In this document: one piece after another, positions 12,147 through 64,000 of the stretch | Layout: each line of letters starts with the position of its first letter | Numbering within the stretch: the first letter of the stretch is position 1 | From: Octopus vulgaris | Taxonomy: Eukaryota | DNA: 64,000 bases | Direction: 5' to 3' | NCBI GenBank assembly: GCA_951406725.2 | Contig: OX597815.1 | Coordinates: 48,050,001-48,114,000 of the forward strand | Program-made: the position numbers and the translations under genes | The notes under the pieces: generated by a model | What the model saw: only the letters and a program-made list of their open reading frames with translations | Told to the model about the DNA's origin: nothing | The model's database searches: none

Positions 12147-13408
12147 TAGGGGTTTGGACAAAATAATGGAAACACCTTAAAATTTCAAGCAAATTCATTT
12201 TAATATGAGTAGGACTGCCTTTGGCAGTAATTACAGCTTGAATTCTGAGGTATGGACTCGTACAAAGTTTGAATTTTTACCAAAGGAATTTTTGTCCATT
12301 CTTCAGCTAAAACAGCCTCCAGTTCTTGTAGTGATGATAGTAGAGGATATTGACTCATTACTTGTTTTTCTAAAATGCACCATAAATGTTCAATAATATT
12401 GAGATCTGGGGACTGTGGTGGCCAGGTAAGATGTTCAACTTCACTAGAATGTTCCTTATGCCATTCAGTAAAAACTTTAGCTATGTGAATTGCTGCATTA
12501 TCCTCCTGAAAGAATTTGTTTCCCTCCAGAAACAGTTCTGCAACCATAGGATGAATTTGATCCGATAAAATGCTTAAATAGTCTTAATTTTGCCATGAAA
12601 GGAAACCATTAGGCCAGCGGATTTCCAAGATATAGCCCCCCAGACCATCACAGATTCTCCTACATGTTTAACAGTTGAAAGAAGGCAGTCTGGGTCAAAT
12701 GCTTCTTTTGGCTGTCTCCACATGTATACTCAGCCAATGACTGGAAATAAGGTAAAGGATGACTCGTCCGAGAAAATAACATTCTTCTACTGCTTTAGGG
12801 ACTAATTTTGTCGGTATAATCAAGTCTAAATGCTTTGCAACATTTGTTTTGAAAGTAGTGGTTTTCTAATTGCAGCCCTCCCATAAAATCTGGCTTTGTG
12901 CAGCTTCCAGCAAACAGTTTTGTGGAAACTGGGTTCTCAAGGTGGTCATTAAGCTCTGCAGTAATTTTGGGAGCATTACTTTTGTGATCTTTTCAAACAA
13001 TTCACGTAAGAGTCCGGCGATCCCTATCTGAAAGTTATGGTTTTCTTCCAGAGTTTTGTTCTGACGAGGAGGTTTTTCCATTTTTTCGCAAAGACTTGTC
13101 ATTACTTTCGAGACAGTACATCTTGATACACCAAACATTTTGGCTGTTTTCATTATGCTAGCACCTGCCTTATGAACATCAACAATTTGACCTCTTTGAA
13201 AGTCTGATAGATCTGTCATTTTAATGAATTTTAATTACCTTTTTCTGATGATATCAAAAAAGAAGCAGCAATTTTAGCAAAACATACTAAGCAACACTAA
13301 TAATAAATCAAAAACCCTAAAAATAAAGAAGCTTTTGATGGTTTTATGGATATTCCAAAATTATTATGCTATGATGCTAGGTGTTTCTATTATTTTGTCC
13401 AACCCCTG
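12147..13408 (-). mobile_element. Full-length Tc1/mariner DNA transposon (non-functional)
   Basis: ~30-bp TIRs (t/c)agggg(t)ttggacaaaataat(g/a)gaaacacct at 12147-12177 and 13379-13408; TA on both sides (12145-12146, 13409-13410). Confidence 0.95.
12200..13219 (-). pseudogene. Tc1-type DDE transposase pseudogene
   Basis: N-terminal HTH MTDLSDFQRGQIV...AGAS..KTA...GVSR.TVSKV; IFSDESSF; FQEDNAAIH; WPPQSPDLNIIEHLW; several frameshifts and stops. Confidence 0.93.
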
Positions 13409-29337: not shown

Positions 29338-29396
<59 letters not shown>

Positions 29397-29899
29397 CATA
29401 TTATATATATATATATATACACATACATACATATTATATATATATATATATATACCAGTACATGCATATTTATATATATATATATACATATTATATACAT
29501 ACATATATGTATATATATATACATACATATTATATATATACACACATATATATGTATATTATATGTGTATATATATATGTATGTGTATATATATATACAT
29601 ATATATACATATATACATGTATATATATGTATTTACATATACACACACACACACATATATATATACATATATATACACACACACACACACACACAAAAAA
29701 AAAAAATATACACATATATACATATATATACATATATATATATATACGCATAAATATACATATATACACATATACATACATATACATATATATACACATG
29801 TATATATACATACATATATATATACATATACATACATATATATATATGCATATATTTATACATATTATATACATATGAATATACATACACACACACACT

Positions 29900-29930
<31 letters not shown>
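29325..29930. repeat. Compound (TA)/(CA) microsatellite
   Basis: Visible directly. Confidence 0.95.
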
Positions 29931-29931
<1 letters not shown>

Positions 29932-30370
29932 CCGGAGTAAACACATAAATGTGAAACAAGGTGGAAAAAAGAGTACTCAAATACCAGAGGTAGAGTAATA
30001 TCCTTTATTTAAAAGCAGCAGAAATTTAACAAAAGCTGTTACTCTTAGTTTCACGTTCCCGTTTGTTGGACAGTTTTGTTAAAATAGAACTGAGGTGACA
30101 ATTCTATCAAGACTAGTATAAACGTTACACCTTTAAAAATGGATTTGTTTGATTGGTCCTTTCAAAATGCGAAACTATCCAACAGTGTGATTTGTTTTGC
30201 ATTTTGAAAGGAACAATCAAACAAATCCATTTTTAAAGGTGTAACGTTTATACTAGTCTTGATAGAATTGTCACCTCAGTTCTATTTTAACAAAACTGTC
30301 TGACGAACGGGAACGTAAAACTCCCAGTAAAAGCTCTTGTTAAATTTCTGCTGCTTTTAAATAAAGTATA
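29930..30370. mobile_element. Foldback Penelope-like remnant with a hammerhead motif in each arm
   Basis: 173-bp arms at 30003-30175 and 30194-30366 with an 18-nt loop; hammerhead fold at 30296-30333(+) and its mirror at ~30036-30073(-). Confidence 0.7.
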
Positions 30371-30385
30371 TACATATATATACAT

Positions 30386-30524
30386 ATTAGTCATGGGTTG
30401 CTCTCATCCATTGATTCCTATCTTGTGCTGTTCCGCAACTGCAAACAGAGAGGAAATATAATTCTGTTTACCTAAAGCTACTGTCATTATTTATTTCCTT
30501 TTCGCCCTAACTACAAGAATGACC
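30386..30524 (+). repeat. Left arm of a 139-bp long-range inverted repeat (partner 37865-38003)
   Basis: tattagtcatgggttgctctcatcc...ctacaagaatgacc is the near-exact reverse complement of 37865-38003. Confidence 0.9.
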
Positions 30525-34829: not shown

Positions 34830-35870
34830 CATCTTCCTGGACCCAGGAGGTAAGATGGTTATTCTGGATGTGAACAGTAGCGATGGGGGAACTTTCAGAC
34901 TGGTGGCTATTTATACTCTGATAATTGCAGGGCAGCTGGATTTCTTTAGACATCCAGAGGTTCAGCTGGCAATGCTTGCTCCTTAGTGTTACTAGATGAC
35001 TTGGATGCCATCTTTGATGCACATTTAAATTGTTTGGGGCTAGCTGTTAAAAGAGGCAGGGTCAAAAGCCTCACAAACCTGCTCAAACATGTCCAATTGT
35101 CTGACAGATACTGACTGTATTTCTTGAACATGCCTGGGTCGTATATAAGCAGAGTTTTCTGTAGACCTATAGATAAAGAGAGCATAAGATTCCCACATTT
35201 TAAAACTGGATGATTTGTCCTATGAGCTTTACTTCTTTATGCCAGACTTGCTTGGAGGACTCTTAGCACATATCTACTGCAACATGCAGCAAAGTAGGAG
35301 AATTCCTAGTTCTGTGAGTTGAGGGGCAGTGGCACTGGTAAGAAAGGACCTAAACAAGGGACATCAAATAGAAAATCTTAGGCCCGTAGCTCTTCTAAAT
35401 GCAAATTTCAAAATTTGGGCCAAGGTAGTGCAACAATGTCTTTGGGTAGATGCTAACAAGAAACAACTGACTGGTCTCTTCCAGAGGACTTTCATGTCAG
35501 GGCCCAAGGATAATTTCTTTCCCTGGCAGTGCTACCAAGGGGCATTGCTGGTTCAGGGTAAACTCTATAAGCATGGAAGCGCCATCAGCTGGGCTTGCCT
35601 GAGAAATGCGCAGAGCAATGAAACAATTCTGCAATCTGTTGTCCAGAGCCTGAGCATTGTTAAGTGTATGGTGAATCCAGCTATTGACTGAGACCATTGA
35701 GCAAATTGTCCCACCTCTTTCCTTTGGCTAGGAAAGGCAGGCACTGTCTATTTGGTAGCCTTAGTGAAAGAGAAGAAAATGTTAGCTTTCAGCAACTTTG
35801 TTGAAAGGTGGGTGAATGTGACAAGAATGGTCTGAGTGAATGGGCCTACTCCAAACATGAGTCAATTTAG
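34830..35870 (+). mobile_element. Tx1/L1-clade LINE relic, heavily deleted (APE, RT start and zinc-binding C-terminus)
   Basis: GGTFRLVAIY and DDLDAIFDAHL (APE); LDDLSYELY...VALVRKD.NKG..IENLRPVALLNANFKIWAKV (RT N-terminus); WQCYQGAL.V..KL.KHG......CLR....NETIL (zf-RVT-like). Confidence 0.85.
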
Positions 35871-63659: not shown

Positions 63660-64000
63660 ATACTTTGTGATGTTTTGAAAATTTTTGCCATACTTTGTGA
63701 TTTTGGCAATGCTGGCTATCCATACTTTGTGATTTTGTCACCACTGGCCTTCCATACTTTGTGATTTTGGCACCACTAGCTTTCCATACTTTGTGATTTC
63801 GGCACCGCTGGCCTTCCATACTTTGTGATTTTCCTCCAAAATTTTTCGAAATTTTATCCAATAATTTTTCGAAAATTTTCACCGAAAACTTAACCCAAAA
63901 ATTTTTCGAAAATTTTCACCGAAAATTTTACACAAAAATTTTTCGAAAATTTTCCCGAAAATTTTTCGAAAATTTTCACCGAAAATTTTACACAGAAATT
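63660..64000. repeat. 32-bp minisatellite followed by a quasi-palindromic AAAAATTTTTCGAAAATTTT array
   Basis: ccatactttgtgatt at 63688, 63720, 63752, 63784 and 63816 (32-bp period); aaaatttttcgaaaattttc units from ~63838 to the window end. Confidence 0.9.

What the first reader, a model, noticed from the sequence alone, without database searches (positions are those of the whole stretch)
29930..30370. 173-bp-arm foldback with mirror-image hammerhead ribozymes
Seen: arms 30003-30175 / 30194-30366 with an 18-nt loop. The right arm reads ctgt-CTGACGA-ACG ggaa CGT-AAA-ACTC c CAGT-A-aaag. The left arm (minus) reads ctgt-CCAACAA-ACG ggaa CGT-GAA-ACTA a GAGT-A-acag. Combined, they reconstruct a complete type I hammerhead, each copy broken at different positions. 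The inner ~100 bp have one mismatch while the ribozyme part has about nine. Inference: an inverted Penelope terminal-repeat pair. The CTGACGA/CCAACAA pair fits CpG decay of an ancestral CCGACGA. The near-perfect stem could feed siRNA/ADAR pathways or be homogenised by conversion.
Basis: partly seen in the sequence, partly recalled or inferred. Interest (0 to 1): 0.75.

Follow-up and report, generated by a model that had tools for sequence, protein, structure and literature searches.

The report
Decayed two-armed Penelope retrotransposon insertion
The mirror-image stretch is real but ordinary: it is two broken tail ends of a very common jumping gene, joined head to head in a TA repeat, with self-cutting RNA motifs that are predicted to be dead, and sampling suggests hundreds of similar palindromes in this genome.

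Summary
The palindrome is as described: 173-nt arms, 11 mismatches, 18-nt loop. Its centre also lies in a contig from a run with another organism code, which argues against an assembly artefact. Both arms are 3' ends of a Hydra-clade Penelope-like retrotransposon (711-aa RT/GIY-YIG-type ORF, TA-repeat target). The left arm has the family's ~67-nt tail; the right stops at the family's second 3' end. The layout is routine here: 85 of 159 sampled tail-less ends have a tailed inverted partner alongside, and 37 carry both hammerhead spans. Peculiar to this locus: both arms share a ~1.1-kb deletion junction found nowhere else, and the mismatches cluster outward, which suggests later fold-back copying (about even odds). 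Of more interest is the family pattern: arm lengths match, pile up at 85-90 nt, and mostly run through the predicted cleavage site. This fits two cDNAs running off one uncut RNA. siRNA or ADAR use is untested. Earlier notes of this scan describe such palindromes elsewhere in this genome.

The parts
29340..29931 (.). (TA)n-type microsatellite, left side of the insertion target
   Evidence: Tandem Repeats Finder period 2; 86 of 90 young and 47 of 72 old-type tail-less ends are followed by three or more further TA
29932..29997 (-). Tail of the element, present on the left arm only (long 3' end)
   Evidence: Matches the family terminus, query positions 1-67
29998..30166 (-). Left arm: 3' terminal repeat (pLTR) body, older subfamily
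   Evidence: 91-95% identity to the 40 scored genome copies; alignment
30026..30082 (-). Left hammerhead relic. Helices I and II intact; core CCAACAA (G5 and G8 lost); helix III palindrome broken; predicted cut between 30040 and 30039
   Evidence: helix III self-dimer -1.7 against -7.8 kcal/mol in an intact copy
30167..30192 (-). Junction bases plus a ~23-nt piece from ~30 nt behind the ORF stop codon, joined to the pLTR across a ~1.0-1.1 kb deletion; forms most of the loop
   Evidence: junction found only at this locus
30189..30202 (+). Right arm's copy of the same deletion junction; 30189-30192 is a 4-nt overlap that fits both arms (fold-back or annealing point)
   Evidence: Sequence against the family alignment
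30203..30371 (+). Right arm: pLTR body ending at the family's short (tail-less) 3' end
   Evidence: Exact match to the old-type tail-less end pattern, 1183 places in G000
30287..30343 (+). Right hammerhead relic. Core CTGACGA good; GAAA box lost (G12 to A); one helix I pair and the helix III palindrome broken; predicted cut between 30329 and 30330
   Evidence: helix III self-dimer -0.1 kcal/mol
30372..30387 (.). Short TA-rich remnant, right side of the target
   Evidence: Sequence

Best explanation
This is a decayed two-armed insertion of a Hydra-clade Penelope-like retrotransposon: two 5'-truncated 3' ends lie head to head in a TA repeat, likely made when both ends of the cut target primed reverse transcription on the same source RNA. 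Shown: family identity, TA target, one tailed and one tail-less arm, a deletion junction shared by both arms and private to this locus, broken ribozyme cores. Inferred (about 0.7): one target end primed at the tail end and the other ~67 nt further in, and the two cDNAs were joined through the 4-nt overlap at 30189-30192. Inferred (about 0.5): the insertion was once longer, and a later template switch removed ~1.1 kb and copied ~110 nt of the left arm over the inner right arm. That would explain the shared junction, two shared derived bases and the clean inner stem. The copy likely does nothing by design; in a read-through transcript the long stem is predicted to exclude the ribozyme fold.
For: Family: 2387 candidates, 40 scored, at 91-95% identity; the same repeat flanks 727-codon open frames in 3.36-kb units. 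The ORF has RWK, DKT, YRDD, CxCx5C, GVVY/YTG, CxxC and CxH and lacks the CX2-5CxxC finger, the marks given for Hydra. Its RT segments match the printed Hydra alignment by eye, and Atlas neighbours include GIY-YIG/RVT_1 clusters. Layout: 14 of 14 ORF-anchored two-armed insertions with both ends in view have one tailed and one tail-less end (20 hand-picked loci). 85 of 159 consecutive tail-less ends have a tailed inverted partner within 40 nt, and 1 has a tail-less partner. One source per insertion: two-copy variants are shared by the two arms of one locus 158 times (136 from one divergent locus) against once across loci; arm-to-arm distance is below the cross-locus median in 12 of 13 loci. Private junction: 2 matches in 2.8 Gb, both here. 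Mismatch gradient: 9/66 outer against 2/107 inner, Fisher P 0.003; clean run of 87 nt or more under family site rates P 0.001. Hammerhead helix pair probabilities about 0 in the long-stem ensemble (the probed pairs were offset by one base).
Against: Pfam and PDB sequence searches gave the ORF no hit, Rfam gave the motif none, and no tree was built. Two pLTR-anchored two-armed loci, L017 and L026, have tails on both arms. L057's arms differ more than the cross-locus median. Total arm divergence here (11/173, 6.4%) equals that of old-type mini-palindromes (71/1183, 6.0%), other old palindromes show no clean-inner pattern, and the gradient tests are post hoc. Three of four runs laid on the centre gave no contig over it.
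Confidence: 0.86

Rival explanations
1. Same element, but everything happened at insertion: the source RNA already carried the deletion, or the reverse transcriptase jumped and snapped back, and the uneven mismatches are chance plus CpG decay. This differs from the best explanation only in the history of the centre.
For: The arms of one insertion usually share source variants (L014's arms share a 1-nt deletion). Near-symmetric centres are the family norm (38 of 85 within 3 nt). The ribozyme stretch has 5 CpG in 36 nt against 2 in 87. Self-priming at inverted junctions is proposed in PMC3846280 (passages).
Against: No other copy has the junction at up to 3 mismatches in 25 nt. Family site rates differ little between the two stretches (0.056 against 0.049) and put only 26% of expected mismatches in the ribozyme part.
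Confidence: 0.42
2. The palindrome is a kept, functional hairpin RNA locus (siRNA source or ADAR substrate) whose inner stem is held perfect by selection.
For: An 87-nt perfect stem. The centre is present in a run coded as another organism, and the unitig ends suggest perfect arms there (inference). Palindromic repeats are heavily edited in frog, and octopus is rich in near-perfect dsRNA loci (PMC5625713 passages).
Against: Hundreds of equivalent palindromes are expected from insertion alone. Overall arm divergence is typical of neutral copies. No host exon was recognised among 150 of 223 open frames scanned.
Confidence: 0.07
3. The palindrome is an assembly or amplification fold-back artefact.
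For: Three of four runs laid have no contig over the centre.
Against: The arms differ at 11 positions, each arm with its own changes from the family majority. The right arm stops at the family's second terminus, not at a mirror of the left end. Run X8 has a 74-nt contig over 30148-30221 with 3 differences (one contig, depth 7.4, 28 nt on each side of the loop, short of the tool's 31-nt rule).
Confidence: 0.02
4. The whole palindrome is a mobile unit (a MITE-like or retrozyme-like element).
For: Compact inverted-repeat shape with ribozyme motifs.
Against: Centre and junction are single-copy. Other palindromes of the family have other centres; recurrent ones sit at a 4-nt internal palindrome. 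There are no tandem monomers here.
Confidence: 0.02

Closest known systems
Hydra-clade Penelope-like elements (Craig et al. 2021, PMC8557442; passages, section 11 and supplement hits seen)
   Same: C-terminal endonuclease, RWK, DKT, CxCx5C linker, CxxC and CxH, (TA)n targets, hammerhead in the 3' repeat, partial tandems, inverted 5'-truncated copy, tail on one end. The record printed just before Hydra-1_Obim in the supplement (a coral element by its order) has the same helix I and helix III letters around a CTGATGA core.
   Different: Tail ~67 nt, not 30-40. Unit ~3.36 kb, not under 3 kb. The older subfamily has C at core position 4. The listed octopus family Hydra-1_Obim has a related protein but another ribozyme and 'no pLTR', so this is a different family (comparison by eye).
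Inverted pLTR structures of endonuclease-positive Penelope elements (Arkhipova et al. 2013, PMC3846280, passages; Cervera and de la Pena 2014, PMC4209133, abstract to discussion)
   Same: Head-to-head junctions with palindromes, optional tail on one inverted pLTR, microhomology joins and deletions, paired ribozymes 100-700 bp apart on opposite strands, short palindromic helix III suited to dimers.
   Different: Those papers describe few copies and favour self-priming on an antisense template; here hundreds of young copies give arm-length statistics.
Anolis Poseidon (PAc) in vitro (Frangieh et al. 2024, PMC11167929; abstract, main text and start of methods)
   Same: Two internal reverse-transcription start sites that define the tail, cutting and extension of both target strands, ribozyme cleavage dispensable for insertion.
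   Different: Other clade; that work does not reconstruct a joined two-armed product in the parts read.
Animal non-LTR retrozymes (bioRxiv 10.64898/2026.07.22.740005, first of five parts)
   Same: Type I hammerhead in a non-coding repeat tied to Penelope-like elements.
   Different: Retrozymes are tandem monomers; this is the 3' end of a coding element, single and inverted.

Membership tests
Penelope-like element, endonuclease-positive | Single ORF with RT and GIY-YIG-type endonuclease linked to the repeat | tested here: met
   The repeat flanks a 711-aa ORF with FDIIDFYPS, YRDD, NHP, GVVY/YTG; Atlas neighbours with GIY-YIG and RVT_1; Pfam and PDB searches blank. The ORF is in relatives, not in the window.
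Penelope-like element, endonuclease-positive | pLTRs from partial tandems, inverted 5'-truncated copy, tail at one end | tested here: met
Penelope-like element, endonuclease-positive | RT phylogeny within Penelope-like elements | not tested
   No reference proteins could be brought into the script box; comparison by eye with the printed alignment only
Hydra clade | RWK, DKT, CxCx5C linker, CxxC and CxH flanking the EN end, no CX2-5CxxC | tested here: met
   Motif scan against the definition
Hydra clade | (TA)n insertion | tested here: met
Hydra clade | Canonical hammerhead in the 3' repeat | tested here: inconclusive
   Young subfamily has CTGATGA/GAAA/TA but a 2-bp helix II; the window's subfamily has C4 in 28 of 33 copies; no Rfam hit
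Type I hammerhead ribozyme (window copies) | Intact core C3 U4 G5 A6 N7 G8 A9, G12 A13 A14, U16.1 H17 | tested here: not met
   Left CCAACAA; right GAAA box reads AAAA
Type I hammerhead ribozyme (window copies) | Three helices, short palindromic helix III able to dimerise | tested here: inconclusive
   Helices I and II largely form; helix III self-dimer -1.7 and -0.1 against -7.8 and -7.4 kcal/mol in intact copies
Type I hammerhead ribozyme (family) | Self-cleavage | not testable with these tools
   Needs an assay; 142 of 159 tail-less arms extend past the predicted cut, so their templates were uncut there
Non-LTR retrozyme | Tandem monomers each with a hammerhead | tested here: not met
   Single inverted pair, repeat belongs to a coding unit
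MITE | Whole unit dispersed in many copies | tested here: not met

The most novel reading that the evidence does not exclude
The family's short palindromes are a fossil record of how Penelope-like elements make inverted insertions: both target ends prime at two fixed sites ~67 nt apart in the 5' pLTR copy of one uncut RNA, both cDNAs run off the RNA's 5' end about 90 nt upstream (an initiator-like site at the foot of hammerhead helix I), and the two ends anneal. This turns out mirror-image-ribozyme hairpins by the hundreds and, with the kilobase-armed insertions, could supply much of the near-perfect double-stranded RNA that this heavily edited lineage is known for.
Probability: 0.4. Interest if true: 0.6.

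Novelty: new member of a known kind. Interest (0 to 1): 0.28.

Why it matters
The locus itself matters little: it is a dead fragment of a described layout. The family matters more. How Penelope-like elements form tandem and inverted insertions is named as open in PMC8557442. Here a young family with many open 727-codon frames leaves countable products: a near-strict tailed/tail-less pairing, matched arm lengths, a pile-up at 85-90 nt with none at 91-99, and templates uncut by the ribozyme. One transcription-start map would test the run-off model directly. An older subfamily spread to over a thousand copies with a non-canonical C4 core, in line with cleavage being dispensable.

Tried and rejected
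Rfam: no hammerhead hit; only long-hairpin miRNA models far below their gathering scores. Pfam and PDB sequence searches on the ORF: blank. Pure fold-back from the tailed strand predicts that the tailed arm is always longer; rejected, since tailed was longer in 7 and tail-less in 7 of 14 long insertions, and 20 against 27 among short ones differing by over 3 nt. Pile-up of arm ends at the predicted cleavage site (42 nt): not seen; 2 of 90 young and 6 of 69 old arms end at 36-43 nt. Splicing as the cause of the deletion or of the 90-nt boundary: no AG at the window junction, and young arms keep the bases 5' of the AG. A parent with the deletion: none. The other six of seven loop-pattern hits showed no family sequence nearby. 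Expression: no RNA holder listed; contigs cannot show it. Three runs without cover at the centre show nothing about absence. Host gene: 150 of 223 higher-complexity frames scanned, only Tc1/mariner remnants, so intron versus intergenic is open. The script stopped before its second simulation and its uniform-rate control; these were not rerun. My notebook entry 'arms closer in 13 of 13' was wrong: it is 12 of 13. L122 was dropped from counts as the same insertion as L121; L068 was left out; L063 is cut off at one end. Papers fetched but not used as support: PMC6431247 (passages). Search by sequence among earlier findings: nothing.

Full report
Observation. The arms 30003-30175 and 30194-30366 are 173 nt with 11 mismatches around an 18-nt loop; nine mismatches fall in 30033-30068, none in 30069-30155, two further in. 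The hairpin is far beyond chance (z -37). The two hammerhead-like strings read as quoted. Rfam does not recognise them. A run coded as organism C holds a 74-nt contig over 30148-30221 with 3 differences and a 41-nt contig at about twice its depth over the arm. The contig ends are symmetric about the axis, as expected if the arms are perfect there; that is my inference. It is one contig with 28 nt on each side of the loop, and three other runs gave no cover. Contigs in three runs join the last 15-28 nt of the right arm to the unique flank. An artefact is unlikely.

What the arms are. The left arm with its outer 66 nt finds 2387 candidates in G000 (2.8 Gb); the 40 scored are 91-95% identical. 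One copy runs into an RT-like frame, which finds 5739 candidates, many of the 150 scored with 727-codon open frames. In 20 hand-picked loci the repeat lies directly before the ORF and again ~1.1 kb behind it, in 3.36-kb units. The 711-aa protein has RWK, DKT, FDIIDFYPS, YRDD, a CxCx5C linker, GVVY/YTG, CxxC and CxH, the features listed for the Hydra clade (PMC8557442 section 11). By eye it follows the printed Hydra alignment, but the listed Hydra-1_Obim has another ribozyme and no pLTR. Pfam and PDB gave nothing; the Atlas gave neighbours at 0.96-0.99 with GIY-YIG, RVT_1 and HTH_animal labels on part of their members. No tree was built. That the host is an octopus is my recall of genome features plus earlier AI notes, not a test.

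The ribozyme. The window's subfamily reads CCGACGA in 21 of 33 close copies and has C at position 4 in 28 of 33; helix II is 3 bp with a GNRA loop, helix I 4+9 bp with a bulge, and helix III a short palindrome. The youngest subfamily reads CTGATGA with a 2-bp helix II. U4C lowers activity in vitro but supported viroid infectivity (PMC3088659 passage). In the window the left copy has lost G5 and G8 and the right G12, and both have lost the helix III palindrome. Loss of these bases abolishes cleavage by established hammerhead chemistry (own knowledge; G8C also in PMC11167929).

The layout is the family norm. The family has two 3' ends ~67 nt apart. All 14 ORF-anchored two-armed insertions with both ends in view have one of each; two pLTR-anchored loci have two tails. 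Exact tail-less ends number 1183 (old type) and 1718 (young type). I took them in listing order on C1 and C2: 69 old and 90 young. A tailed inverted partner lies within 40 nt in 43 and 42; a tail-less partner in 1 and 0; 29 young arms ran beyond the 470 nt viewed. Both ribozyme spans are present in 12 and 25, which scales to roughly 680 mirror-ribozyme palindromes. Inverted copies, one-sided tails and opposite-strand ribozyme pairs are in print.

Mechanistic signals in the family. The arms of one insertion come from one source. Arm lengths match within 3 nt in 25 of 42 young (11.4 expected by permutation; 0 of 20000 reach it) and 13 of 43 old (5.0 expected; P 0.0003). Tail-less arms end at 85-90 nt in 23 of 90 and 17 of 69, and at 91-99 nt in none; 8 unpaired arms stop there too. 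The boundary lies at the 5' foot of helix I on a YYANWYY initiator-like word (recalled consensus). 142 of 159 arms pass the predicted cut, so their templates were uncut. Either arm may be the longer, which rules out simple fold-back from the tailed strand. With the two internal start sites and two-strand extension shown for Anolis Poseidon, the simplest reading is priming from both target ends on one RNA, run-off at its 5' end, and annealing by a few bases. This is inference; an RT stop at the helix or RNA processing could also set the boundary. Paper searches for Penelope-like with twin priming or pLTR, for inverted/palindromic Penelope, and for octopus with Penelope listed no paper that, by title and abstract start, reports such arm-length statistics. 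Subscription papers are not covered, and only one supplement (PMC8557442) was searched.

What is special here. The loop is element sequence from ~30 nt behind the ORF stop, joined to the pLTR across ~1.0-1.1 kb. Both arms carry that junction, and it occurs nowhere else at up to 3 mismatches in 25 nt. Both arms also share two derived bases, at 30091 and 30095 (2 and 0 carriers among 34 alignments), while each has its own changes further out. The split of 9/66 against 2/107 is unlikely by chance (P 0.003; 0.01 if the loop-edge mismatch is counted), though total divergence is typical (6.4% against 6.0%) and the test is post hoc. A later template switch that deleted, snapped back at the 4-nt overlap and copied ~110 nt accounts for all three facts; such events are described in PMC10710096 (abstract only). 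An insertion-time origin from a lost, deleted source remains nearly as likely.

Function. No evidence of use. No host exon was recognised and no RNA holder was listed. If transcribed, the stem would be an ADAR or Dicer substrate by established biochemistry; PMC5625713 (passages) reports octopus rich in such loci and did not analyse its repeats.

Verdict. Earlier notes of this scan, read only after my tests, say the same of other loci; they are not independent support. Interest 0.28, carried by the family statistics rather than by this copy.

Noticed in passing
L143-L232 and L113-L142, L233-L272 (G000 C1, C2): Arm ends pile up 85-90 nt from the tail-less end with none at 91-99, at an initiator-like word at the foot of hammerhead helix I; arm lengths within an insertion match far above chance.
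   Followed up: partly
L057:1717-7803 and L061:1501-7660: Palindromes with ~3-kb arms and a 16-nt or 0-nt loop; L061 has a 26-nt perfect fold-back followed by a short deletion on one arm.
   Followed up: partly
L053:5372-7552 and the list: Young subfamily with many identical-scoring 727-codon open frames, probably recently active.
   Followed up: partly
L053 against L007: Old and young subfamilies differ at both core CpG positions (CCGACGA against CTGATGA), loop II, the helix I bulge and the centre of helix III; the young one has lost a helix II pair.
   Followed up: partly
L056:4621-4708 and L059:4592-4655: Centre fillers: an 88-nt piece that looks like a common short interspersed repeat (recalled), and a 64-nt run of a 10-nt unit taken from the element's own junction.
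   Followed up: no
tail-less ends: The C five bases before the tail-less end is usually replaced by T, as if the TA primer paired over it.
   Followed up: no
window 12203-13234 (-): Broken Tc1/mariner-type transposase (DDE_3 and HTH hits).
   Followed up: no
window 35323-35691 (+): Short frame resembling a LINE reverse transcriptase fragment (recalled motif; no Pfam hit).
   Followed up: no
window 16837, 24394, 39359, 43907, 53298 and others: Dispersed 130-220 nt repeat families (D17-D20), probably short interspersed elements.
   Followed up: no
window 63688-64000: 32-nt and 12/24/37/60-nt tandem arrays at the window end.
   Followed up: no
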